Shown in pieces: positions 296 to 58,292 of a stretch of 64,000 bases of DNA (the stretch's first letter is position 1; every line of letters starts with the position of its first letter). This stretch comes from a phage, in NCBI GenBank assembly GCA_016390365.1, contig GCA_016390365.1_3043.1. One strand, written 5' to 3'. The position numbers and the translations under genes are program-made. The notes beneath the pieces are model-generated. The model saw only the letters and a program-made list of their open reading frames with translations, searched no databases and had not been told where the DNA came from.

Positions 296-732
296 AAACA
301 TTATCAGCTGGTATTATCTTTATGACAGAAGATAAAGATTTATTTATGGGTCGGGTTACTGGTTCTCGTAAGCCTGGAATGATGGCACATCGTTGGGATA
401 TTCCAAAGGGCCGCGTAGAAAATTCTGATTTAAGCGCACTAGATGCAGCACGAAGAGAATGCTTAGAAGAGACTGGTTTTAGCAATTATAATCCAGACCT
501 TCTAGAAGACCTAGGTGTATTTAAATATTCTAGTAATAAAGACTTACAGTTATTTTATTATACGATTCCAGTAGAGCATGAGATGTTCAGAAATTGCTAT
601 TGTGAGTCTTATTTTGAAAATAAAGATGGCGTTATGATTCCAGAGATGGATGCTTTTGCTCTTATTCCTCGTACTCAGTGGCAATATGTGATGGGTCCTT
701 CACTTTACCGAATAATGAACAACCTCTTTTAA
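292..732 (+). CDS. nudE: Nudix hydrolase NudE (e.1)
   Basis: Nudix box GRVENSDLSALDAARRECLEETG; start moved to ATG 292 with SD aggaaa; N-terminus MKTLSAGIIFMTEDKD matches recalled T4 NudE. Confidence 0.85.
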   Translation: MKTLSAGIIFMTEDKDLFMGRVTGSRKPGMMAHRWDIPKGRVENSDLSALDAARRECLEETGFSNYNPDLLEDLGVFKYSSNKDLQLFYYTIPVEHEMFRNCYCESYFENKDGVMIPEMDAFALIPRTQWQYVMGPSLYRIMNNLF

Positions 733-1263
<531 letters not shown>

Positions 1264-1264
1264 A

Positions 1265-1300
1265 GTTGTTTACTTTCTCCTAGAATTGTGATAGTATATT
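1265..1300 (+). promoter_or_regulatory. early promoter (GTTTAC -35, 17-bp spacer, TGn-extended -10) for denV
   Basis: gtttac at 1268-1273; tgtgatagtat -10 region; SD ggaggg before ATG 1323. Confidence 0.5.
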
Positions 1301-1322
1301 CACAGTTAATTGGAGGGATAAA

Positions 1323-1739
1323 ATGACTCGTATTAATTTGACTTTAGTATCTGAACTTGCTGATCAACATTTAATCGCAGAATACCGTGAATTGCCACGT
1401 GTTTTTGGTATAGTTCGTAAACACGTGGCAAATGGTAAACGGGTTAAAGATTTTAAAATATCTTCCGAGTTTATTTTAGGTTCTGGTCATGTCACGTTCT
1501 TTTACGATAAGTTAGAATTTTTGCGAAAGCGTCAATCAGACATTATAACGGAATGCTTAAAACGTGGGTTTAGTATAAAAGATACTGAAGTTCCTGACAT
1601 CAGCGATATTCCAGCAGAATGGAAAAATGATTATAACCCATGCAAATCGGCTATTAAATTGAGTCAACAACGACTCGATGAAAAAATTTTAATGAAGCCA
1701 CACTGGTATAAATACTACGGCAAAAATATTTACATTTAA
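1323..1739 (+). CDS. denV: endonuclease V, pyrimidine-dimer DNA glycosylase
   Basis: 138 aa [17 protein letters not shown]..., matches recalled T4 DenV. Confidence 0.95.
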
Positions 1740-1748
1740 AGGAAACAC

Positions 1749-2222
1749 ATGAAAACATATCAAGAATTTATCACTGAAGCAGCTATTAATTCTCAAATTA
1801 TTGCTGAATCTTTTACTGATCTTTTGAAATTTAAAAAAGGTCAAAAAATCACTGCTGTATTAGATGATGGTACAGAAGTTGAGATGGATGTACAGGGATA
1901 TAATTATGCAGTAGATGGAAAACTGTATAATAAATCTCATGCTAAATTTGATTCATTTGACGATTTTGTTAATACAGTTGAAGATGAAAAAACTCGTAGA
2001 TCCATTGCAACTGGCGACGCTAAGGTTCTTATGGCACACGGTCATGAACGTATCCGCGCCAAACAGAATAAAATGGGCGAAGATAATTTTGCATTAGTTG
2101 GTTATCAATCTGGTAAACAAACTTATGGTTATCAGCGTACTGCTACCATGTATAATAAAAATGGTAAAATCGCTTTCGTGAATAGCAAAGGCTCTATTCA
2201 GTACGTCAAATCATTCAAATAA
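1749..2222 (+). CDS. internal head protein, IPII/IPIII-like, with capsid targeting sequence
   Basis: N-terminus MKTYQEFITEA matches the T4 internal-protein CTS (MKTYQEFIAE, cleaved after E by prohead protease); body differs from T4 IPs. Confidence 0.7.
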   Translation: MKTYQEFITEAAINSQIIAESFTDLLKFKKGQKITAVLDDGTEVEMDVQGYNYAVDGKLYNKSHAKFDSFDDFVNTVEDEKTRRSIATGDAKVLMAHGHERIRAKQNKMGEDNFALVGYQSGKQTYGYQRTATMYNKNGKIAFVNSKGSIQYVKSFK

Positions 2223-2375: not shown

Positions 2376-2915
2376 ATGAGAACATTTTTAACTGGCCCGT
2401 ATCTATCCCTGATGAATGCTTTTACACACCATTCTGATGCTAGAGTAGAAGAAATTTGTAAAAACGAATATATCCCGCCATTTGAAGAATTACTTAAACA
2501 GTACTGTACACTTCGACTAGATGGTGGACGTCAATCTGGTAAATCAACTGCGGTAACTAATTTTGCCGCTAATTGGTTGTATGATGGCGGAACAGTTATT
2601 GTTCTTTCTAATACTTCAGCTTACGCTAAAATTTCTGCAGGCCACATTAAAAAAGAATTTTCTCGTTATTCTAGTAATGATATTCGATTCCGCTTATTTA
2701 CTGATTCTGTCCGTAGTTTTATCGGTAATAAAGGAAGCAAGTTCAGAGGTTTATCTCTTTCGCGAATTTTGTATATAATCGATGAGCCTGTTAAATCTCC
2801 TGATATGGATAAAATTTACGATATTCATATTGAAACTGTGCAACACTGCTGTAATAGTAAATGTTGCATTGGTGGTATTACTCGTCCGCAGTTTTTCGTA
2901 ATCGGAATGCAATGA
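2376..2915 (+). CDS. hypothetical protein with P-loop-like motif
   Basis: Walker A-like GGRQSGKST and hhhhDE (ILYIIDE); start placed at ATG 2376 after SD gagaga. Confidence 0.5.
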   Translation: MRTFLTGPYLSLMNAFTHHSDARVEEICKNEYIPPFEELLKQYCTLRLDGGRQSGKSTAVTNFAANWLYDGGTVIVLSNTSAYAKISAGHIKKEFSRYSSNDIRFRLFTDSVRSFIGNKGSKFRGLSLSRILYIIDEPVKSPDMDKIYDIHIETVQHCCNSKCCIGGITRPQFFVIGMQ

Positions 2916-3241
2916 TGACAGACACACAGCTTTTCGAATATCTTTATTTTTCGCCAAAAACTATTAAAAATAAATTGGTGAATCATTTTGAAATTTTGGC
3001 AAATAACAACGTCTTGAGCGAATTTTATCCTAAGCAATACAAATTACAAAAAGGTGTATTCAAAGGATGCAGAGTTTTGTGTACTGCTCCTAATGCAAGA
3101 TTAATGAATAAAATTCCATATTTTACCATGGAATTTATTGATGGACCTTTTAAAGGACTAATCACCCAAAGTTTAATGGCATATGATTCTGAGCCATTTT
3201 TAATTAAAGAACAATCTTGGATAAATTTATTTTCTAATTGA
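2912..3241 (+). CDS. hypothetical protein
   Basis: ORF starting MMTDTQLFEY; ATGATG overlaps upstream stop codon. Confidence 0.45.
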   Translation: MMTDTQLFEYLYFSPKTIKNKLVNHFEILANNNVLSEFYPKQYKLQKGVFKGCRVLCTAPNARLMNKIPYFTMEFIDGPFKGLITQSLMAYDSEPFLIKEQSWINLFSN

Positions 3242-3247
3242 GGTTAT

Positions 3248-3610
3248 ATGAAAGCATATCAAATTCTTGAAGGCACACATAAAGGTACTATTTATTTTGA
3301 AGATGGTATTCAAGCACGAATTATTGTTTCTAAAACCTTTAAAGAGGACTCTTTTGTAGACCCAGAAATTTTCTACGGTTTGCATGCCCGTGAAATTGAA
3401 ATTGAGCCACAGCCTACAGTTAAAATTGAAGGTGGTCAACACCTGAACGTTAACGTTCTGCGTCGTGAAACTTTGGAAGATGCAGTTAAGCATCCGGAAA
3501 AATATCCGCAGCTGACCATCCGTGTATCAGGTTATGCAGTTCGTTTTAACTCTCTGACTCCGGAACAGCAGCGCGACGTTATCGCTCGTACCTTTACTGA
3601 GAGTCTGTAA
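3248..3610 (+). CDS. autonomous glycyl radical cofactor, GrcA/YfiD-like
   Basis: C-terminal [29 protein letters not shown] glycyl-radical motif; 3' half GC-rich with E. coli-like codons. Confidence 0.8.
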
Positions 3611-3831
3611 TGGCAAAGATAATTATTGAAGGTTCTAAAGATGTGCTAAATGCTTTCGCAGAATGGTTTAGTAATTCAGGCGAACAGCAATTTAATGAAG
3701 CGTGGAATATGGGTGATATTAGTGGAATTTATCCTACGACAGAAATTTCTGTTCAGGGATATGGCATTCATGAACCTATTCGTTTAGTTGAATATGATTT
3801 GGGAACGGGCGAGGAAGTCAAATATGATTGA
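3610..3831 (+). CDS. hypothetical protein
   Basis: 73-codon ORF, TAATG coupling to upstream gene. Confidence 0.5.
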   Translation: MAKIIIEGSKDVLNAFAEWFSNSGEQQFNEAWNMGDISGIYPTTEISVQGYGIHEPIRLVEYDLGTGEEVKYD

Positions 3832-4090
3832 AGATATTAAAGGTTATAAGCCTCACACTGAAGAGAAAATCGATAAAGTGAATGCTATCAAAGACGCTGA
3901 AGTTCGTTTAGGACTTATCTTTGACGCTTTATATGATGAATTCTGGGAAGCACTAGATAATTGTGAAGACTACGAATTCGCAAAGAATTATGCTGAAAGC
4001 CTAGATCAGTTAACTATTGCTAAAACGAAACTCAAAGAAGCTAGTATGTGGGCTTGTCGTGCTGTGTTCCAACCAGAGGAAAAATATTAA
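3824..4090 (+). CDS. hypothetical small helical protein at the T4 vs.4 position (candidate Acb2-like)
   Basis: start ATG 3824 after SD gaggaag; syntenic position two ORFs upstream of regB; identity to Acb2 not verifiable from memory. Confidence 0.5.
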
Positions 4091-4368
4091 TGGCTCAATT
4101 AAGCGCAGGGTTTGGTTATGAGTATTATACTGCCCCTCGTCGTGTATCTATTGCTTCTAAGAAAATTCAAAGTCTTGATGATTTCCAGGAAGTAGTCCGT
4201 AAAGCTTTCCAGGACTATGCACGTTATCTTAAAGAAGATTCACAGGACTGTCTCGAAGAAGATGAAATTGCTTACTATGAGCAGCGTCTTGAACAGCTTA
4301 AAAACTTACATGAGGTTCGTGCAGAAGTTTCAAAGTCTATGAATAAATTGATTAGATTTAAAGAATAA
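4090..4368 (+). CDS. hypothetical protein (vs.3 position)
   Basis: 92-codon ORF starting [18 protein letters not shown] coupling. Confidence 0.5.
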
Positions 4369-12272: not shown

Positions 12273-12298
12273 GGGAGCCTTCGGGCTCCCTTTTTTTT
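12273..12298 (+). terminator. rho-independent terminator, UUCG tetraloop
   Basis: gggagcc-ttcg-ggctccc followed by T8. Confidence 0.8.
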
Positions 12299-12319
12299 AT
12301 TTCAAAAATTTTTTCACAA

Positions 12320-12387
12320 AATTGTTTACAAGCATAAAGCTTTATGGTACTATACAACTATCAACTGATACGGATTTGGAGAATAAA
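12320..12387 (+). promoter_or_regulatory. early promoter plus conserved leader (PeSL-like cassette)
   Basis: gtttac 12324-12329; TGGTACTATACAACTATCAACT core; leader GATTTGGAGAATAAAATG shared with 38697..38745. Confidence 0.55.
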
Positions 12388-13356
12388 ATGAAAACTGTAA
12401 CTATCAATAAGGGTATTTACTTCGGTAAAGAAATCTCTGGAACTTTTGAGCTCTTAGGCGAATGGTTCCCAGATAATGCTCCAGTAGATGCACAAGGAGA
12501 TGGTAAAGTTTTTGTTGAAATTGACGGTAAACGTCGCGGTGTTTGGGTTTACAAATCAGACATTTCATATGATGGTGTAAAAGTTGAAGAAGTTAAAGAA
12601 TCGTATGAAGATATGAAAACCCGCATTAATAAAAGATTTAATGTTATGGGAATGATGACGAATGGTATTATTAACGGAAACATTCGTTCATTAATTATCT
12701 CTGGTGCGGCAGGCATTGGTAAAACGTATTCTTTAGATAAAGCTTTAAATAAAGCAAATGATATTGGATACATTGAATATAAAAGCATTAATGGTAAAAT
12801 CTCTGGTATTGGTCTTTATGAACAGCTTTGGAATAATCGTGAAGAGAATTCTGTCCTTTTGATTGATGATGTGGATGTTTTCTCTGATATGGACATTCTT
12901 AATCTTCTGAAAGCTGCTCTGGACACCGGAGAGACCCGTAAAGTCTGCTGGAGCACTGCGTCTTCTTACTTAGAAGAAAAAGGCATTGAGCGTGAGTTTG
13001 AATTTAAAGGAACGATTGTTTTTATCACAAACGTTGACATTGACCGCGAATTAGACCGTGGTACTAAACTTGCTCCACATTTACAAGCATTAGTGTCCCG
13101 CTCAGTTTATTTGGATTTGGGTGTTCACACTAATGAAGAAATTATGGTCAGGGTTGAAGATGTTATTCTTTCAACTGACATGATGCAAAAGCGCGGTCTT
13201 TCTGATGAAGAAACTTATAAAGCATTATCATGGATGAAAGTTAATGTTAATCGTTTACGCAATGTTTCACTGCGTACTGCTCTTTATCTTGCTGACTTTA
13301 TTATGACCGACAAAAACGGTTGGGAAGAAATTGCTGAGGTTACTCTTCTGAAATAA
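12388..13356 (+). CDS. AAA+/P-loop ATPase
   Basis: Walker A ISGAAGIGKT, Walker B VLLIDDVD, sensor-like FITN; start ATG 12388. Confidence 0.6.
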   Translation: MKTVTINKGIYFGKEISGTFELLGEWFPDNAPVDAQGDGKVFVEIDGKRRGVWVYKSDISYDGVKVEEVKESYEDMKTRINKRFNVMGMMTNGIINGNIRSLIISGAAGIGKTYSLDKALNKANDIGYIEYKSINGKISGIGLYEQLWNNREENSVLLIDDVDVFSDMDILNLLKAALDTGETRKVCWSTASSYLEEKGIEREFEFKGTIVFITNVDIDRELDRGTKLAPHLQALVSRSVYLDLGVHTNEEIMVRVEDVILSTDMMQKRGLSDEETYKALSWMKVNVNRLRNVSLRTALYLADFIMTDKNGWEEIAEVTLLK

Positions 13357-13760: not shown

Positions 13761-13805
13761 TGGTTTACAAGACTGTTCCTCTGTGGTACTATACAACTAT
13801 CAACT
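13760..13805 (+). promoter_or_regulatory. early promoter plus conserved core (PeSL-like cassette)
   Basis: gtttac 13764-13769; TGGTACTATACAACTATCAACT core 13784-13805. Confidence 0.5.
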
Positions 13806-13820
13806 ACGGAGGAACACAAA

Positions 13821-14348
13821 ATGAACGCTAAAGATATTTTCAACCTGGTAAATTACAACGATGGTAAATTTAAATCTGAAGCACAAAGCAAGTTCTTTAA
13901 TGACATCTCAATCGGAGGTGAAATCACGGTTGATGGAGGACAAATTTACAAATCTCGTTGGAATTGGATCGTTATTATCGATGAGATTGGTATTGTAGAA
14001 ATTTACAAGAATACGAATAAAAATCGTACATTACACTGGTCTCGTGATACTAACGAACAGTACAAAAAGGATAAAGCATCTAAATTATCTCGTGTAACTC
14101 AAGAAGATATTGAGTTCATCAAGAAAGATATTTTGATGTATGATAACTTAATTGCTGAAGAGCAAGCTGTTATTGATAAATTTGACGAGATTAAAGCTTC
14201 TCGTGAAATTCCTGATTTTATGAAAGAATCAGTAAATGAACGATACACTCTCATTTCAGAGCGTATTGAAACTTACAAAAAGCAAAGAGCTGAACGCCAG
14301 AATACTCTTCGGAAGTTTGAAGAACGGTTAAAGACGGTACTCGCATAA
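13821..14348 (+). CDS. hypothetical protein
   Basis: 175-codon ORF after SD ggagg. Confidence 0.5.
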   Translation: MNAKDIFNLVNYNDGKFKSEAQSKFFNDISIGGEITVDGGQIYKSRWNWIVIIDEIGIVEIYKNTNKNRTLHWSRDTNEQYKKDKASKLSRVTQEDIEFIKKDILMYDNLIAEEQAVIDKFDEIKASREIPDFMKESVNERYTLISERIETYKKQRAERQNTLRKFEERLKTVLA

Positions 14349-35862: not shown

Positions 35863-38559
35863 ATGAAAGAATTTTATATCTCTATTGAAACAGTCGGAAA
35901 TAACATTGTTGAACGTTATATTGATGAAAACGGAAAGGAACGTACTCGTGAAGTAGAATATCTTCCGACTATGTTTAGGCATTGTAAGGAAGAGTCAAAA
36001 TACAAAGACATCTATGGTAAAAATTGTGCTCCTCAAAAATTTCCATCAATGAAAGATGCACGAGACTGGATGAAACGAATGGAAGACATTGGTCTCGAAG
36101 CTCTCGGTATGAACGATTTTAAACTCGCTTATATCAGTGATACATATGGTTCAGAAATTGTTTATGACCGAAAATTTGTTCGTGTAGCTAACTGTGACAT
36201 TGAGGTTACTGGTGATAAATTTCCTGACCCAATGAAAGCAGAATATGAAATTGATGCTATCACTCATTATGATTCAATTGACGATCGTTTTTACGTCTTT
36301 GATTTGTTGAATTCAATGTACGGTTCAGTATCAAAATGGGATGCAAAGTTAGCTGCTAAGCTTGACTGTGAAGGTGGTGATGAAGTTCCTCAAGAAATTC
36401 TTGACCGAGTAATTTATATGCCATTCGATAATGAGCGTGATATGCTCATGGAATATATCAATCTTTGGGAACAGAAACGACCTGCTATTTTTACCGGTTG
36501 GAATATTGAGGGATTTGACGTTCCGTATATCATGAATCGCGTTAAAATGGTTCTCGGTGAACGCAGTATGAAACGTTTCTCTCCAATCGGTCGAGTAAAA
36601 TCTAAACTAATTCAAAATATGTACGGTAGCAAAGAAATTTATTCTATTGATGGCGTATCTATTCTTGATTATTTAGATTTGTACAAGAAATTCGCTTTTA
36701 CTAATTTGCCGTCATTCTCTTTGGAATCAGTTGCTCAACATGAAACCAAAAAAGGTAAATTACCATACGACGGTCCTATTAATAAACTTCGTGAGACTAA
36801 TCATCAACGATACATTAGTTATAACATCATTGACGTAGAATCAGTTCAAGCAATTGATAAAATTCGCGGGTTTATCGATCTAGTTTTAAGTATGTCTTAT
36901 TACGCTAAAATGCCTTTTTCTGGTGTAATGAGTCCTATTAAAACCTGGGATGCTATTATTTTTAACTCATTGAAAGGTGAACATAAGGTTATTCCTCAAC
37001 AAGGTTCGCACGTTAAACAGAGTTTTCCGGGTGCATTTGTGTTTGAACCTAAACCAATTGCTCGTCGATATATTATGAGTTTTGACTTGACGTCTCTATA
37101 TCCTAGCATTATTCGTCAGGTTAACATTAGTCCTGAAACTATTCGTGGACAATTTAAAGTTCATCCAATTCATGAATATATCGCAGGAACAGCTCCTAAA
37201 CCGAGTGATGAATATTCTTGTTCTCCGAATGGATGGATGTATGATAAGCATCAAGAAGGTATCATTCCAAAGGAAATCGCTAAAGTATTTTTCCAGCGTA
37301 AAGACTGGAAAAAGAAAATGTTCGCTGAAGAAATGAATGCCGAAGCTATTAAAAAGATTATTATGAAAGGCGCAGGGTCTTGTTCAACTAAACCAGAAGT
37401 TGAACGATATGTTAAGTTCAGTGATGATTTCTTAAATGAACTATCGAATTATACTGAATCTGTTCTCAATAGTCTGATTGAGGAATGTGAAAAAGCAGCT
37501 ACACTTGCTAATACAAATCAGCTGAACCGTAAAATTCTTATTAACAGTCTTTATGGTGCTCTTGGTAATATTCATTTCCGTTACTATGATTTGCGAAATG
37601 CTACTGCTATCACAATTTTCGGCCAAGTTGGTATTCAGTGGATTGCTCGTAAAATTAATGAATATCTGAATAAAGTATGCGGAACCAATGGCGAAGATTT
37701 CATCGCAGCAGGTGATACTGATTCGGTATATGTTTGTGTAGATAAAGTTATTGAAAAAGTTGGTCTTGACCGATTCAAAGAGCAGAACGATTTAGTTGAA
37801 TTCATGAATCAGTTCGGTAAGAAAAAGATGGAACCTATGATTGATGTTGCATATCGTGAGTTATGTGATTATATGAATAACCGCGAGCATCTGATGCATA
37901 TGGACCGTGAAGCTATTTCTTGCCCTCCACTTGGTTCAAAGGGCGTTGGTGGATTTTGGAAAGCGAAAAAGCGTTATGCTCTGAACGTTTATGATATGGA
38001 AGATAAGCGATTTGCTGAACCGCATCTAAAAATCATGGGTATGGAAACTCAGCAGAGTTCAACGCCCAAAGCGGTCCAAGAAGCTCTCGAAGAAAGTATT
38101 CGTCGTATTCTTCAGGAAGGTGAAGAGTCTGTCCAAGAATATTACAAGAACTTCGAGAAAGAATATCGTCAACTCGACTATAAAGTTATTGCTGAAGTAA
38201 AAACTGCGAACGATATAGCGAAATATGATGATAAAGGTTGGCCAGGATTTAAATGTCCGTTCCATATTCGTGGTGTGCTAACTTATCGTCGAGCTGTTAG
38301 CGGTTTAGGTGTAGCTCCAATTTTGGATGGAAATAAAGTAATGGTTCTTCCATTGCGTGAAGGAAATCCATTTGGTGACAAATGCATTGCTTGGCCGTCG
38401 GGTACAGAACTTCCAAAAGAAATTCGTTCTGACGTACTGTCTTGGATTGACTACTCAACTTTGTTCCAAAAATCGTTTGTTAAACCGCTTGCGGGCATGT
38501 GTGAATCGGCTGGTATGGACTATGAAGAAAAAGCTTCGTTAGACTTCCTGTTTGGCTGA
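35863..38559 (+). CDS. 43: DNA polymerase gp43 (family B)
   Basis: 898 aa; exo motifs and polymerase motifs SLYPS, YGDTDS. Confidence 0.97.
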   Translation: MKEFYISIETVGNNIVERYIDENGKERTREVEYLPTMFRHCKEESKYKDIYGKNCAPQKFPSMKDARDWMKRMEDIGLEALGMNDFKLAYISDTYGSEIVYDRKFVRVANCDIEVTGDKFPDPMKAEYEIDAITHYDSIDDRFYVFDLLNSMYGSVSKWDAKLAAKLDCEGGDEVPQEILDRVIYMPFDNERDMLMEYINLWEQKRPAIFTGWNIEGFDVPYIMNRVKMVLGERSMKRFSPIGRVKSKLIQNMYGSKEIYSIDGVSILDYLDLYKKFAFTNLPSFSLESVAQHETKKGKLPYDGPINKLRETNHQRYISYNIIDVESVQAIDKIRGFIDLVLSMSYYAKMPFSGVMSPIKTWDAIIFNSLKGEHKVIPQQGSHVKQSFPGAFVFEPKPIARRYIMSFDLTSLYPSIIRQVNISPETIRGQFKVHPIHEYIAGTAPKPSDEYSCSPNGWMYDKHQEGIIPKEIAKVFFQRKDWKKKMFAEEMNAEAIKKIIMKGAGSCSTKPEVERYVKFSDDFLNELSNYTESVLNSLIEECEKAATLANTNQLNRKILINSLYGALGNIHFRYYDLRNATAITIFGQVGIQWIARKINEYLNKVCGTNGEDFIAAGDTDSVYVCVDKVIEKVGLDRFKEQNDLVEFMNQFGKKKMEPMIDVAYRELCDYMNNREHLMHMDREAISCPPLGSKGVGGFWKAKKRYALNVYDMEDKRFAEPHLKIMGMETQQSSTPKAVQEALEESIRRILQEGEESVQEYYKNFEKEYRQLDYKVIAEVKTANDIAKYDDKGWPGFKCPFHIRGVLTYRRAVSGLGVAPILDGNKVMVLPLREGNPFGDKCIAWPSGTELPKEIRSDVLSWIDYSTLFQKSFVKPLAGMCESAGMDYEEKASLDFLFG

Positions 38560-38571
38560 TAGAATAAATCT

Positions 38572-38593
38572 AGGGACCTCCGGGTCCCTTTTT
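38572..38593 (+). terminator. rho-independent terminator
   Basis: gggacc-tccg-ggtccc followed by T5. Confidence 0.8.
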
Positions 38594-38671
38594 CATACAA
38601 GTAATATAAATCTATACTTAGGAAAAATAGATGATTCTGGACCCTTTGGATTCATTAAAATTTTTTCACAA

Positions 38672-38742
38672 AACTGTTTACATCCCTGTTCTTCCATGGT
38701 ACTATACAACTATCAACTACTGATACAGATTTGGAGAATAAA
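38672..38742 (+). promoter_or_regulatory. early promoter plus conserved leader (PeSL-like cassette)
   Basis: gtttac 38676-38681; core TGGTACTATACAACTATCAACT and leader GATTTGGAGAATAAAATGAAAA shared with 12345..12392. Confidence 0.55.
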
Positions 38743-38979
38743 ATGAAAATTGTTATGGGATGCTTAGCAGTTTGTTTAGTTGCATTAGCAGCAGTTCCAT
38801 TTGTTAGTGTTGAAAATGATACTCAACCTGTGATTGAATCTAGCACTGTTATTCACACTAATGGTAAAATATCAGTTAAAATTGATGATAATCTTCATGC
38901 GAATACAAATGGATCTTTAGGTGTGCAAATGGGTAATACCTGCATAAGCACTACTGGAGTAATTACTACTTGCATTTGA
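38743..38979 (+). CDS. hypothetical secreted small protein
   Basis: start ATG 38743; signal peptide MKIVMGCLAVCLVALAAVPFVSV. Confidence 0.5.
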   Translation: MKIVMGCLAVCLVALAAVPFVSVENDTQPVIESSTVIHTNGKISVKIDDNLHANTNGSLGVQMGNTCISTTGVITTCI

Positions 38980-38989
38980 GGAAATTATT

Positions 38990-39370
38990 ATGAAAATCGC
39001 TATTTTGGTTATTGCATTAGGTCTTACTGGTTGTGTAGCTCAAGGACCGGTAGTAAATCAGTCTGATGTAGGAAAAATTGTAAACTGTTCAAGCAAGTTT
39101 TATAATCCTAATGTCAAGTGTTATAAAGAAGCTCCAAAACAGACAGTAGAACAAATGCAGGCGAATTTTGACGAAGCTATTCGTCCAGATGAATCTGCTC
39201 AAGCATATCGTAATTCTGATGTAATTACACGCGAAGAAAAAATTGAAAACTACTGCGCCGAAATTTGGGCTAATTGGGCTAATAATTACCAATGGCGTAC
39301 TGGTAAAAATGCTCCGATGGAGTATGTAGTGAATTCTTATAATTCATGTGTAAAAAATTTGACTAAGTGA
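38990..39370 (+). CDS. hypothetical lipoprotein
   Basis: signal peptide with lipobox LTGC (MKIAILVIALGLTGC). Confidence 0.55.
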   Translation: MKIAILVIALGLTGCVAQGPVVNQSDVGKIVNCSSKFYNPNVKCYKEAPKQTVEQMQANFDEAIRPDESAQAYRNSDVITREEKIENYCAEIWANWANNYQWRTGKNAPMEYVVNSYNSCVKNLTK

Positions 39371-39377
39371 GGAAAAC

Positions 39378-39629
39378 ATGGAAACTTTAGTAGCAGGTTC
39401 AATTTTTATGGTTTTAGTTTCAGGTGTGTTGGCTATTATTATATACATGCTTCCATGGTTCATCGCCTTGATGCGTGGGTCAAAATCAACAGTAGGAATC
39501 TTTTTCACGTCTTTACTGTTTAACTGGTCAATTATTGGTTGGTTTATTACATTTATTTGGTCAATTGCGGGTGAAACTAAAAAGTCTGCACAACCAAATC
39601 AGGTAATTATCATCAGAGAGAAGGAATGA
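39378..39629 (+). CDS. imm: superinfection immunity membrane protein Imm
   Basis: 83 aa, two hydrophobic TM segments; position between 43 and 42. Confidence 0.7.
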   Translation: METLVAGSIFMVLVSGVLAIIIYMLPWFIALMRGSKSTVGIFFTSLLFNWSIIGWFITFIWSIAGETKKSAQPNQVIIIREKE

Positions 39630-39775
39630 AAAGCAAAATTATAACAGTGTTGCTTTTAATCTTGATGATTATAATAAGTATATACTATAGTGTAACGGTT
39701 CCTCTTATGATTCCAACTATTATTTTAGGTTGGAGCTTATTACTGTTACAAGTTAAATATGAATGTATCAATTGA
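39626..39775 (+). CDS. hypothetical small membrane protein
   Basis: 49-aa hydrophobic ORF, ATGA coupling to imm; not in track. Confidence 0.35.
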   Translation: MKSKIITVLLLILMIIISIYYSVTVPLMIPTIILGWSLLLLQVKYECIN

Positions 39776-57904: not shown

Positions 57905-57934
57905 AGTTTAAAATTTTTTCATAAAACTATATAC

Positions 57935-58004
57935 ATCAGTAGTTGATTATGGTACTATATCAATATCAACTACTGATATAGAAAATAATTTGGAGAATAA
58001 AATG
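57935..58004 (+). repeat. PeSL-like cassette with 13-bp perfect inverted repeat and orphan start
   Basis: atcagtagttgat ... atcaactactgat flank tatggtactatat; leader TTTGGAGAATAAAATG followed by only an 11-codon ORF. Confidence 0.55.
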
Positions 58005-58076
58005 GAAAATTTGCCAAAGGTGCTGCTACTCTTCTGAAACGCATCGCTCCAATGTTCAATTAACGAGGAAATTGTA

Positions 58077-58292
58077 ATGAAACGTAAAATTGTTCAGAAC
58101 TGCACTAATGACGAATTTGAAGATGTGTTATTCGATCCAGATTTGGTAGTAGTTCAAAAGGAACACACTGCTAAGTTTACTCACTTGACTTCGGTTTATG
58201 TGTATGAAAAGGTTGGGGATAAACAACCAATTTACGGTGTATTTCGTGAAATCACTGAAGATGGTACAACTTACTGGAAGGAAATTTATTAA
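58077..58292 (+). CDS. hypothetical protein (cef position)
   Basis: 71 aa; synteny suggests cef, unverified. Confidence 0.45.

What the first reader, a model, noticed from the sequence alone, without database searches (positions are those of the whole stretch)
38672..39370. Cassette between DNA polymerase and imm encoding a secreted protein and a lipoprotein
After the gene 43 terminator, a PeSL-like promoter-leader (shared with 12345..12392) drives a signal-peptide protein (38743..38979) and a lipobox lipoprotein (38990..39370), just upstream of imm. This is a plausible cargo module for superinfection exclusion or envelope modification and appears to have been acquired by cassette exchange.
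Basis: partly seen in the sequence, partly recalled or inferred. Interest (0 to 1): 0.5.

Follow-up and report, generated by a model that had tools for sequence, protein, structure and literature searches.

The report
T-even early envelope operon with swappable first gene
Downstream of the DNA polymerase gene of this T4-like phage, an early promoter drives a strain-variable small exported protein and then Imm.1, a conserved lipoprotein that sits next to the superinfection-immunity gene imm in every T4-like phage genus examined; this is ordinary T-even accessory-gene shuffling, and the one useful lead is that the lipoprotein may be an unrecognised partner of Imm.

Summary
They are the gene 43 terminator, a T4-type early promoter with a leader repeated elsewhere in the window, a 78-aa ORF with a signal-like N-terminus (ORF1), and a 126-aa lipobox protein just upstream of imm.

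The two genes are not one acquired cassette. The lipoprotein is T4 Imm.1 (Pfam DUF5481). It occurs at >=95% identity in 502 phage records and is under strong purifying selection (dN/dS 0.03-0.12). A lipobox lipoprotein lies next to imm in all eight named Straboviridae/T4-like genera or groups examined, even where the pair has moved (Mosigvirus) or the gene order is reversed (Dhakavirus, Gaprivervirus).

Only ORF1 is variable cargo. It is found in about 65% of Tequatrovirus genomes and nowhere else. The slot is empty in T4. T2 carries an unrelated 83-aa ORF there, and one uncultured relative carries an Frd3-like ORF. The exchange junctions lie in the repeated promoter-leader and in the start/RBS region, as in published PeSL shuffling. 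The shared leader carries an exact strong RegB cleavage site.

No function could be assigned by sequence or fold. An envelope or superinfection-exclusion role rests only on localisation signals and gene linkage.

This is a new example of a known phenomenon, and interest is low to moderate.

The parts
38572..38595 (+). Intrinsic terminator of gene 43 (AGGGACC-TCCG-GGTCCCT followed by TTTTT). It is the only robust stem-loop upstream of the promoter.
   Evidence: Conserved in T4, T2 and the uncultured relatives L005-L007.
38605..38612 (+). TATAAATC, which resembles a T4 late promoter (the TATAAATA consensus is cited from memory). It lies between the terminator and the early promoter.
   Evidence: Read from the sequence. 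The block TAATATAAATC is conserved in T4, T2, L005, L006 and L007. Late-promoter function is inferred, not tested.
38655..38705 (+). T4-type early promoter: AT-rich upstream block, -35 (G)TTTACA, 17-nt spacer, TG, -10 TACTAT.
   Evidence: It matches the PST/T4 PeSL promoter consensus TTTACW-N17-TAYWAT (PMC4122927). It belongs to repeat families D1 and D3.
38706..38742 (+). Transcribed leader shared with the copies at 12303 and 57908. It ends in the Shine-Dalgarno sequence.
   Evidence: (D6, 94% identity). No significant RNA structure (z -0.23). No Rfam family above gathering score.
38733..38743 (+). GGAGAATAAAA, an exact match to the strong RegB/S1 cleavage-site consensus GG*AGRAYARAA. It overlaps the ORF1 Shine-Dalgarno sequence.
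   Evidence: 3 matches in the window (12378, 38733, 57992) against 0.39 expected, all three inside this leader family. The consensus is taken from PMC3014915.
38743..38979 (+). ORF1, 78 aa. It has an N-terminal signal peptide or membrane anchor, followed by a mature part of about 55-60 aa that is acidic, rich in Thr/Ser/Asn/Gly and predicted to be beta-rich. It is the variable cargo of the slot.
38743..38750 (+). ATGAAAAT, the left copy of an 8-bp direct repeat. The right copy is at 38990..38997. The two copies bracket exactly the 247 bp that T4 lacks.
   Evidence: Alignment with T4.
38980..38989 (+). Spacer carrying imm.1's own RBS, (T)GAGGAAATTATT. T2 shares this RBS; T4 does not.
38990..39370 (+). 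imm.1, 126 aa, Pfam DUF5481. It is a lipoprotein with lipobox LTG|C15, Val at +2, and four further cysteines.
   Evidence: (237.6 bits against a 27-bit cutoff).
39378..39629 (+). imm, 83 aa, the superinfection-immunity inner-membrane protein. It is the next gene in the unit.
39626..39775 (+). 49-aa very hydrophobic ORF with two predicted transmembrane segments. Its start overlaps the imm stop codon (ATGA).
   Evidence: (phrog_3610, E 8e-26). Homologues in L007 and SP18.
12303..12398 (+). Paralogous promoter-leader copy in front of the gene at 12389. A terminator hairpin lies immediately upstream at 12273..12290.
13763..13826 (+). Paralogous promoter-leader-SD copy. It is identical to the one T2 carries at its own 43/imm.1 slot.
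57908..58012 (+). Paralogous copy with a degenerate -35 (TATACA). It is followed by only a 14-codon ORF and then a GAGGAAATTGTAATG RBS.

Best explanation
The interval is the head of an immediate-early transcription unit of a T2/T6-like Tequatrovirus, and the products of the four genes examined here (ORF1 to the 49-aa ORF) all go to the cell envelope.

Reading downstream, the parts are:
- the gene 43 terminator;
- a strong T4-type early promoter;
- a transcribed leader that is one of several near-identical copies in the genome; its Shine-Dalgarno sequence is an exact strong RegB site, so translation of the first gene should be shut off within minutes (inferred);
- ORF1;
- imm.1;
- imm;
- a 49-aa two-TM ORF;
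- gene 42.

These genes are tightly packed or overlapping.

The two genes of the finding have different histories.

imm.1 is resident. It encodes a lipoprotein with no Asp at +2, so by the E. coli sorting rule it is predicted to go to the outer membrane. Its periplasmic domain is helical and probably disulfide-bonded. A lipoprotein of this kind is kept next to imm across the T4-like phages examined. The most likely reading is that it works with Imm, or in the same process, in conditioning the envelope against superinfecting T-even phages (inferred, about 0.35).

ORF1 is facultative cargo in a slot between the promoter-leader and imm.1. The slot has four states: empty (T4, PST), ORF1 (about 65% of Tequatrovirus), an unrelated 83-aa cytoplasmic-type ORF (T2, RB51), and an Frd3-like ORF (one uncultured relative).

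Exchange happens by recombination within the repeated promoter-leader on the left. On the right it happens in short homologies at the imm.1 RBS or start codon (ATGAAAAT; GAGGAAATTATT). This is the PeSL-type modular shuffling already described for T4-like phages.

ORF1 itself is a Sec-targeted small protein, faster-evolving than imm.1 and dispensable. Its most likely role is a lineage-specific periplasmic or membrane accessory of the same early envelope programme (inferred, weak).
For: Anatomy.

Promoter-leader family. The exact RegB consensus occurs only in the three leader copies (consensus from PMC3014915).

Identity of imm.1:
- T4 annotation.
- DUF5481 at 237.6 bits.
- 502 records at >=95% identity and 155 Mosigvirus records at about 33%.
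- dN/dS 0.03-0.12.

Linkage of a lipoprotein to imm:
- Uncultured relatives L005-L007, at 32-46% identity, have 43-[slot]-imm.1-imm-42.
- Mosigvirus ST0 has the pair relocated next to spackle, while RB69 carries sugar-metabolism genes downstream of 43.
- Klebsiella phage Roth19, Salmonella phage S16 and Serratia phage PS2 have a lipobox protein just upstream of imm.
- Gaprivervirus SP18 and Dhakavirus IME08 have one downstream of imm.
- These proteins share the post-Cys motif G-[DEP]-VV-x-x-S-[ED]-VGK and a C-terminal cysteine pair.
- hhalign probability is 96.6% for SP18 and 92% for Roth19.

Slot polymorphism:
- T4 lacks exactly 247 bp between two ATGAAAAT repeats.
- T2 carries a different ORF with the same right junction, and a promoter-leader identical to the window's 13763 copy.
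- The Dhakavirus homologue of the T2 cargo lies in the tk/rI/mobD/nrdC.11 region.
- L007 has an Frd3-like cargo.
- Occupancy: ORF1 in 326 records, the T2 type in 31 Tequatrovirus records. In an evenly spread sample, 16 were empty, 37 had ORF1 and 3 had the T2 type.
- 319 records hold the contiguous 43-ORF1-imm.1-imm arrangement.
- Shigella phage CT01 has two promoter-leader copies flanking an ORF1 fragment.

The PeSL definition and mechanism come from PMC4122927.
Against: No functional evidence exists for either protein.
- Pfam, NCBIfam and PADLOC gave nothing informative.
- PDB sequence searches were empty.
- The AF2 models were weak: Imm.1 pLDDT 64.5 and ORF1 pLDDT 49.9.
- No paper on Imm.1 was found.

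Phages outside Straboviridae that carry an Imm-domain gene show no adjacent lipoprotein, so Imm-type proteins can stand alone. From memory (Lu and Henning 1989/1994, not retrievable here), plasmid-borne imm alone gives partial immunity.

The stem-loop lies 87 nt upstream of the -35, not immediately upstream as in the published PeSL description.

RegB cleavage and promoter activity are inferred from consensus matches only.
Confidence: 0.7

Rival explanations
1. One reading: ORF1 and the lipoprotein together form one mobile two-gene cargo module, acquired by cassette exchange and dedicated to superinfection exclusion.
For: Both proteins carry export signals, they are adjacent, and they share one promoter. 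The slot really is polymorphic.
Against: imm.1 is present with or without ORF1 in all 502 Tequatrovirus records and is conserved with imm in distant relatives. The two genes are under very different constraint, dN/dS 0.03-0.12 for imm.1 against 0.27-0.43 for ORF1. The indel boundaries enclose ORF1 only.
Confidence: 0.05
2. ORF1 is not a functional protein gene. It would be a decaying remnant or a by-product of recombination at the promoter-leader, kept only because it sits between a strong promoter and imm.1.
For: T4 and T2 do without it. It is restricted to one genus, with only 14 clusters among 5.8 billion proteins. Its AF2 model has pLDDT 49.9. A truncated fragment exists in CT01. The window's 57908 leader copy is followed by only a 14-codon ORF, which shows that such remnants occur.
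Against: ORF1 covers >=80% of its length in 297 of 326 records. Its dN/dS is 0.27-0.43, with dS up to 0.38. The mature part is well conserved, while the hydrophobic signal region tolerates in-frame 7-aa duplications. It has a strong Shine-Dalgarno sequence at correct spacing.
Confidence: 0.08
3. ORF1, and possibly Imm.1, are envelope-located accessory factors with no role in superinfection exclusion. Candidates include a host-adaptation or anti-defence factor, a modulator of lysis timing or lysis inhibition, or protection against host periplasmic or outer-membrane functions.
For: The strain-variable presence and faster evolution of ORF1 fit a host-specific role. PeSL cargo is thought to serve host adaptation (PMC4122927). 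The other cargoes of the same slot, the T2 type and the Frd3-like ORF, have no export signal, so slot position alone does not imply an envelope function.
Against: For Imm.1, the repeated and rearrangement-resistant linkage with imm, plus clustering with spackle in Mosigvirus, points to the exclusion programme. For ORF1 there is no evidence either way.
Confidence: 0.3
4. The empty T4-type slot is derived, not ancestral. ORF1 would have been lost by deletion between the two ATGAAAAT repeats, so the window would show the older state and no acquisition took place in this lineage.
For: The 247-bp difference is bracketed exactly by an 8-bp direct repeat, the classic signature of deletion. ORF1 alleles are more diverged (dS 0.22-0.38) than the adjacent imm.1 (0.08-0.19) in the same genome pairs, which suggests old alleles. 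ORF1 is the majority state.
Against: The outgroups L005 and L006 have an empty slot with a T4-like imm.1 RBS (GGAGTAATAATG and GGAGAATATTATG). L007 keeps that RBS downstream of its own cargo. In the window and in T2, imm.1 uses a different RBS (GAGGAAATTATT), which looks secondary.
Confidence: 0.35

Closest known systems
T4 gene imm.1 (NP_049661; Pfam DUF5481, phrog_1754)
   Same: The 126-aa lipoprotein is this gene. It holds the same position between 43 and imm, is about 97% identical, and scores 237.6 bits against DUF5481.
   Different: In T4, imm.1 is the first gene after the early promoter and uses the GGAG leader RBS. Here ORF1 holds that position and imm.1 has its own GAGG RBS. The function is unknown in both. 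RefSeq's product name 'iduronate sulfatase' has no support in the Pfam or NCBIfam scans.
PeSL elements (promoter-early stem-loop) and PeSL-mediated modular shuffling in T4-like phages (Arbiol 2010; Comeau, Arbiol and Krisch 2014, PMC4122927)
   Same: The element has an AT-rich block, a TTTACW-N17-TAYWAT promoter, and a Shine-Dalgarno sequence plus start codon. It is present in several conserved copies and sits at an indel/replacement point between close relatives.
   Different: The stem-loop lies 87 nt upstream rather than directly adjacent. Only the left junction is a PeSL; the right junction is a short RBS/start-codon homology. The slot lies inside the conserved replication-gene block (43...42) rather than in a hyperplastic region.
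T4 Imm and Spackle (gp61.3), the known T-even superinfection-exclusion proteins
   Same: All are early-expressed and envelope-located, like ORF1 and Imm.1. Imm is the next gene in the unit. In Mosigvirus, imm.1-imm-sp are contiguous.
   Different: No sequence relationship of ORF1 or Imm.1 to either protein was found. Spackle is a soluble helical periplasmic inhibitor of the gp5 lysozyme (PMC7677548). ORF1 is predicted to be beta-rich, and Imm.1 is lipid-anchored.
T5 Llp and the Cor family, phage-encoded outer-membrane lipoproteins that block the phage's own receptor (PMC9586334, seen as title and abstract only)
   Same: Each is a small, early phage lipoprotein predicted to face the periplasm from the outer membrane, like Imm.1.
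   Different: No similarity was detected. Imm.1 is >=95% identical between T4 and T2. From memory, T4 and T2 use different outer-membrane receptors, which argues against receptor-specific blocking.
RegB-controlled T4 immediate-early genes (strong site GG*AGRAYARAA; PMC3014915)
   Same: The ORF1 Shine-Dalgarno region matches the strong-site consensus exactly.
   Different: Cleavage was not tested here. Not all GGAG sites are cut.

Membership tests
PeSL (PST/T4 type; Comeau et al. 2014) | Sigma-70-like early promoter TTTACW-N17-TAYWAT preceded by an AT-rich region | tested here: met
   TTTACA, 17-nt spacer, TACTAT at 38677..38705, with the AT-rich block 38655..38675 upstream. Definition.
PeSL (PST/T4 type; Comeau et al. 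2014) | Shine-Dalgarno sequence and start codon of the downstream gene at the 3' end of the element | tested here: met
   GGAG at 38733 and ATG at 38743.
PeSL (PST/T4 type; Comeau et al. 2014) | Stem-loop located just upstream of the promoter | tested here: inconclusive
   The only robust hairpin is the gene 43 terminator at 38572..38589, 87 nt before the -35. A second predicted hairpin at about 38621..38667 is rich in G-U pairs and the fold is not significant (z -1.59). The 12303 copy does have a hairpin directly upstream.
PeSL (PST/T4 type; Comeau et al. 2014) | Several conserved copies per genome, located at insertion/deletion/replacement points between close relatives | tested here: met
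   Four good copies in the window, and 2-5 matching places per related genome. Four slot states are known.
PeSL (PST/T4 type; Comeau et al. 2014) | Excision or integration as mini-circles between tandem PeSLs | not testable with these tools
   This needs PCR or sequencing of circular junctions. CT01 shows two tandem promoter-leader copies around an ORF1 fragment, which is the required substrate topology.
Imm.1 / Pfam DUF5481 | Profile match above the curated threshold | tested here: met
   237.6 bits against a 27-bit cutoff, residues 22-124. phrog_1754 at E 3e-44.
Imm.1 / Pfam DUF5481 | Position immediately upstream of imm | tested here: met
   Window, T4, T2, L005-L007, Mosigvirus ST0.
Bacterial lipoprotein (Lgt/LspA substrate) | Lipobox [LVI][ASTVI][GAS]C after a positively charged n-region and a hydrophobic h-region | tested here: met
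   Imm.1 reads MKIAILVIALGLTG|C15. A lipobox is present in 5 of the 6 family representatives (the sixth, P0018, has none, but its cluster sibling P0022 has LTGC) and in the positional analogues. ORF1 in the window has no canonical lipobox. The variant with a 7-aa duplication (P0011, SG1) gains LAAC.
Bacterial lipoprotein (Lgt/LspA substrate) | Actual lipid modification and membrane sorting | not testable with these tools
   Outer-membrane sorting is inferred from the absence of Asp at +2 in all 10 sequences and the E. coli +2 rule (established knowledge).
Sec/SPase I secreted protein (ORF1) | n-h-c signal peptide with an AXA-type cleavage site | tested here: inconclusive
   The n-region MK, a ~19-residue h-region and candidate sites after residues 14, 16 and 17 are present. 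No trained predictor was available, so an uncleaved anchor is possible.
Spackle (gp61.3) or Imm (PF14373) superinfection-exclusion families | Sequence or profile similarity of ORF1 or Imm.1 to these proteins | tested here: not met
   ORF1 and Imm.1 each match only an unknown-function PHROG family (phrog_4189, phrog_1754), not an Imm or Spackle family, and their Pfam hits do not include PF14373. The PDB sequence search, which should include the Spackle structures, was empty. Only the neighbouring gene is Imm.
Strong RegB/S1 cleavage site | GGAGRAYARAA in a translation-initiation region of an early transcript | tested here: met
   Exact match at 38733..38743, one of only 3 in 64 kb against 0.39 expected. 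Cleavage itself was not tested.

The most novel reading that the evidence does not exclude
The Imm.1-type lipoprotein is an unrecognised, conserved partner of Imm in T4-like phages. Under this reading, an outer-membrane-anchored periplasmic protein and the inner-membrane protein Imm act together, possibly as a trans-envelope pair, to stop DNA entry from superinfecting T-even phages. The 78-aa ORF1 would be a lineage-specific third exported component. If true, this would give a handle on the mechanism of Imm, which as far as I know is still unresolved.
Probability: 0.3. Interest if true: 0.55.

Novelty: new member of a known kind. Interest (0 to 1): 0.3.

Why it matters
As annotated sequence, this locus is ordinary. 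Both ORFs already sit in hundreds of GenBank records as hypothetical proteins, and the way the first gene is swapped is the published PeSL-type shuffling.

Two points have some value.

First, the locus is a clean, well-populated example of that mechanism. It has four slot states, junctions defined to the base, a donor-type promoter copy identified in the same genome, and a possible duplication intermediate in CT01.

Second, a lipobox lipoprotein stays beside imm through relocation and order inversion across the Straboviridae/T4-like genera examined. This is a testable lead on T-even superinfection immunity, whose Imm arm has, to my knowledge, no known mechanism.

Tried and rejected
- **Fold-based function.**
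  - The ORF1 model had pLDDT 49.9, so no fold search was run on it.
- **Sequence-based function.**
  - Pfam, NCBIfam and PADLOC scans were uninformative.
  - PDB profile searches were also uninformative.
- **Wider homologues.**
  - ORF1 has only 14 clusters, all Tequatrovirus-like.
  - For Imm.1, the word-indexed search found 3 clusters, and the exhaustive search found 6 representatives.
- **Paralogues within the window.** None were found for ORF1, Imm.1, the T2 cargo or the Frd3-like cargo.
- **RegA operator at the ORF1 start.** AAAATTGTTATG matches 12 contiguous bases of the SELEX consensus, and this is the best match in the window. The total number of matches with up to 3 mismatches (11) is below the shuffle expectation (13.9), so it is not claimed.
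- **A second stem-loop next to the promoter, and structure in the leader.** Neither was significant.
- **Rfam.** The only match was a sub-threshold snoRNA hit, treated as noise.
- **Literature on imm.1 and DUF5481.**
  - Searches were swamped by journal abbreviations or came back empty.
  - The T4 genome review was not held.
- **A corrected interim conclusion.** I first concluded that Dhakavirus and Gaprivervirus lack the lipoprotein. Translating the genes downstream of imm showed that they have one there.
Full report
**What the window is.** The region around the finding has the T-even gene order 62, regA, 43, imm.1, imm, 42, a beta-glucosyl-HMC-alpha-glucosyltransferase and uvsX on the + strand. 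The interval 38540..39400 is 98-99% identical to many Tequatrovirus genomes. The + strand is therefore the direction of early transcription.

**Check of the observation.**
- Gene 43 stops at 38559, and a 7-bp GC-rich hairpin with a T run follows at 38572..38589.
- A T4-type early promoter lies at 38677..38705: TTTACA, 17 nt, TG, TACTAT. An AT-rich block precedes it.
- ORF1 (38743..38979, 78 aa) has GGAG 6 nt upstream of its start.
  - It begins MK followed by about 19 hydrophobic residues.
  - It has AXA-type candidate cleavage sites after residues 14-17.
- ORF2 (38990..39370, 126 aa) has the canonical lipobox LTG|C15.
- imm starts at 39378 (PF14373).
- The promoter-leader belongs to a repeat family with copies at 12303..12398, 13763..13826, 38655..38753 and 57908..58012.

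ORF1 is a real gene.
- It matches phrog_4189.
- It is intact over >=80% of its length in 297 of 326 phage records.
- Its dN/dS is 0.27-0.43, at dS up to 0.38.

I could not run a signal-peptide predictor, so cleavage versus an uncleaved anchor stays open.

**Why the leader is conserved beyond the promoter.** The segment GGAGAATAAAA at 38733..38743 matches the strong RegB/S1 cleavage consensus GG*AGRAYARAA exactly (PMC3014915).
- That pattern occurs three times in 64 kb against 0.39 expected by chance.
- All three are in copies of this leader.
- The leader shows no significant RNA structure, and no Rfam family reaches its gathering score.

The shared module is therefore best read as a strong immediate-early promoter plus a RegB-sensitive ribosome binding site. 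That would give a brief burst of synthesis of the first gene. Promoter activity and cleavage are inferred from consensus matches.

**The lipoprotein is T4 imm.1, not cargo.**
- In T4 the gene between 43 and imm is imm.1.
- The window protein scores 237.6 bits against Pfam DUF5481, against a cutoff of 27.
- tblastn finds it at >=95% identity in 502 phage records, and at about 33% in 155 Mosigvirus records.
- Its dN/dS is 0.03-0.12.
- The family is narrow. Only six representatives were found in 1.8 billion cluster representatives.
- The lipobox is present in five of those six. The exception, P0018, has a close sibling with LTGC.
- Two C-terminal cysteines are invariant.

**Linkage of a lipoprotein with imm.** This was the most informative result.
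- Three uncultured T-even relatives, with Imm.1 at 32-46% identity, all show 43-[slot]-imm.1-imm-42.
- In Mosigvirus ST0 the pair has moved to the dmd...61 region and sits directly before spackle. RB69 carries sugar-metabolism genes downstream of 43 instead.
- Klebsiella phage Roth19, Salmonella phage S16 and Serratia phage PS2 each have a lipobox protein of about 147-149 aa directly upstream of imm.
- Gaprivervirus SP18 and Dhakavirus IME08 have gene 43 followed directly by imm, which I first read as absence of the lipoprotein. Each encodes a lipobox protein just downstream of imm.

These ten proteins share four features:
- a lipobox;
- no Asp at +2;
- a motif after the lipidated Cys, G-[DEP]-VV-x-x-S-[ED]-VGK, in most of them;
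- two cysteines about 30-45 residues apart near the C-terminus.

Statistical support for homology of the distant members is limited.
- hhalign probability is 96.6% for SP18 and 92% for Roth19, but over N-terminal columns that include the signal peptide.
- It is 18% for S16.

Two phages outside Straboviridae that carry Imm-domain genes have no adjacent lipoprotein.

I conclude that a lipoprotein-imm pairing is conserved across the Straboviridae/T4-like genera examined, through relocation and order inversion. That is gene-neighbourhood evidence for a shared process. It is not proof.

**ORF1 is the exchangeable element.**
- Compared with the window, T4 lacks exactly 247 bp.
  - In T4 the promoter-leader runs straight into imm.1.
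  - The missing segment is bracketed by the 8-bp repeat ATGAAAAT, at 38743..38750 and 38990..38997.
- T2 has a different gene in the same place: an 83-aa ORF with no export signal.
  - Its right junction (GAGGAAATTATT-ATG of imm.1) is the same as in the window.
  - Its promoter, leader and Shine-Dalgarno are identical to the window's copy at 13763..13826, in the nrdC region.
  - The T2-type ORF occurs in 31 Tequatrovirus records.
  - At 54% identity it also occurs in 7 Dhakavirus records. In the one examined (IME08) it lies in the tk/rI/mobD/nrdC.11 region.
- The uncultured relative L007 carries an Frd3-family ORF in the slot.
- ORF1 occurs once per genome in 326 records. It was found nowhere outside Tequatrovirus-like contigs, with 14 clusters among 5.8 billion proteins.
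- 319 records hold the contiguous arrangement of 43 end, ORF1, imm.1 and imm start.
- An evenly spaced sample of matching records gave 16 empty, 34 with ORF1, 3 with ORF1 carrying a 21-nt duplication, and 3 with the T2 type. This agrees with 326/502 and 31/502.
- Shigella phage CT01 has two copies of the promoter-leader.
  - The first copy is fused to 32 codons of imm.1 and to an internal ORF1 fragment.
  - The second copy is followed by an intact imm.1.
  - This is the tandem-repeat topology expected of a recombination intermediate, unless it is an assembly artefact.

**Comparison with PeSLs.** Comeau, Arbiol and Krisch define the element for the PST/T4 pair as an AT-rich region, TTTACW-N17-TAYWAT, a Shine-Dalgarno sequence plus start codon, and a stem-loop just upstream. 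Copies lie at indel points. They note that some events have a PeSL on one side only and a short chance homology on the other (PMC4122927).
- The element here meets the promoter, SD/start, multi-copy and indel-association criteria.
- The stem-loop criterion is met only loosely, because the terminator lies 87 nt upstream.
- The right junction is a short homology, as in their one-sided cases.
- The slot lies inside the conserved 43...42 replication block rather than in a hyperplastic region.

**Direction of change.**
- The outgroups L005 and L006 have an empty slot with a T4-like imm.1 RBS, which favours an empty ancestral state.
- The exact 8-bp repeat and the deeper divergence of ORF1 alleles would also fit loss in the T4 lineage.
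- I leave this open, at about 0.35 for deletion.

**Function.** Nothing could be assigned by similarity.
- Pfam, NCBIfam and PADLOC scans gave nothing informative.
- PDB sequence searches were empty.
- The ORF1 model is unreliable: pLDDT 49.9, an N-terminal helix and then six short strands.
- No paper on Imm.1 or DUF5481 was found.

What can be said is the following.
- Four consecutive products are envelope-directed: ORF1, Imm.1, Imm and the 49-aa ORF.
- They are translated from a tightly packed early unit.
- Imm.1 is predicted to be an outer-membrane lipoprotein with a helical, disulfide-bonded periplasmic domain.
- Its near-identity between T4 and T2 argues against a T5-Llp-type receptor block, because from memory those phages use different receptors. 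It points instead to a target common to T-even infections.

My best mechanistic guess, at about 0.35, is that Imm.1 acts with or alongside Imm in excluding superinfecting phage. I take ORF1 to be a dispensable, lineage-specific periplasmic or membrane accessory of the same programme. A role unrelated to exclusion is about as likely for ORF1.

**Verdict.**
- The locus is a new, well-documented example of a known shuffling mechanism.
- Its one modestly novel lead is the conserved lipoprotein-Imm pairing.

Noticed in passing
window 39626..39775 (+): A 49-aa, very hydrophobic ORF with two predicted TM segments overlaps the imm stop codon (ATGA). It matches phrog_3610 at E 8e-26. Homologues exist in the uncultured relative L007 and in Gaprivervirus SP18 (gp046). 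RB69 ORF054c is annotated as similar to the T4 42-imm intercistronic region. T4 RefSeq does not annotate this ORF, although the DNA is conserved there.
   Followed up: partly
window 38605..38612 (+); also T4 (L001), T2 (L002), L005, L006, L007: The block TAATATAAATC, between the gene 43 terminator and the early promoter, is conserved even in relatives whose Imm.1 is only 32-46% identical. It resembles the T4 late-promoter box TATAAATA (consensus cited from memory), so the imm.1-imm unit may also be transcribed late.
   Followed up: no
L004 (Escherichia phage ST0, Mosigvirus) 2495..3530: In Mosigvirus, imm.1, imm and spackle are three consecutive genes between dmd and the primase gene. Both known exclusion genes and the lipoprotein are thus gathered in one cluster.
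   Followed up: partly
L011 (Shigella phage CT01) about 700..1450: The promoter-leader and the first 32 codons of imm.1 are duplicated around an internal fragment of ORF1. GenBank annotates the result as two odd ORFs. It is either a recombination intermediate at this slot or an assembly artefact.
   Followed up: partly
ORF1 homologues P0005, P0011, P0012 and SG1 (L010 826..1083): The hydrophobic signal region of ORF1 carries in-frame 7-aa duplications (LAVCLVA / CLVALAA). One variant creates a canonical lipobox, LAA|C18. This variant forms a 51-member cluster that UniRef names 'Lipoprotein' and makes up about 5% of sampled genomes. Some alleles may therefore be lipidated while the window allele is not.
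   Followed up: partly
window 38746..38760 (+): The ORF1 start region AAAATTGTTATGGGA matches 12 contiguous bases of the RegA SELEX consensus aaAAUUGUUAUGUAA. It is the best match in the window, with 2 mismatches. The total count of matches with up to 3 mismatches is not above chance.
   Followed up: partly
window 57908..58090 (+): This copy of the promoter-leader has a degenerate -35 (TATACA). It is followed by only a 14-codon ORF (MENLPKVLLLF...) and then a GAGGAAATTGTAATG RBS for the next gene. It looks like a slot whose cargo has been lost or truncated.
   Followed up: no
L003 (RB69) 3324..4099; L012 (IME08) 1962..2222: The region downstream of gene 43 is a general exchange point in T4-like phages. 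RB69 carries arabinose-5-phosphate isomerase and other sugar genes there. The T2-type slot cargo has a Dhakavirus homologue in the tk/rI/mobD/nrdC.11 region.
   Followed up: partly
RefSeq records NC_000866 (T4) and NC_054931 (T2), gene imm.1: RefSeq names Imm.1 'iduronate sulfatase', and many GenBank records call it 'immunity protein'. Neither name has support in the Pfam, NCBIfam or PDB searches run here. Both look like name propagation.
   Followed up: yes
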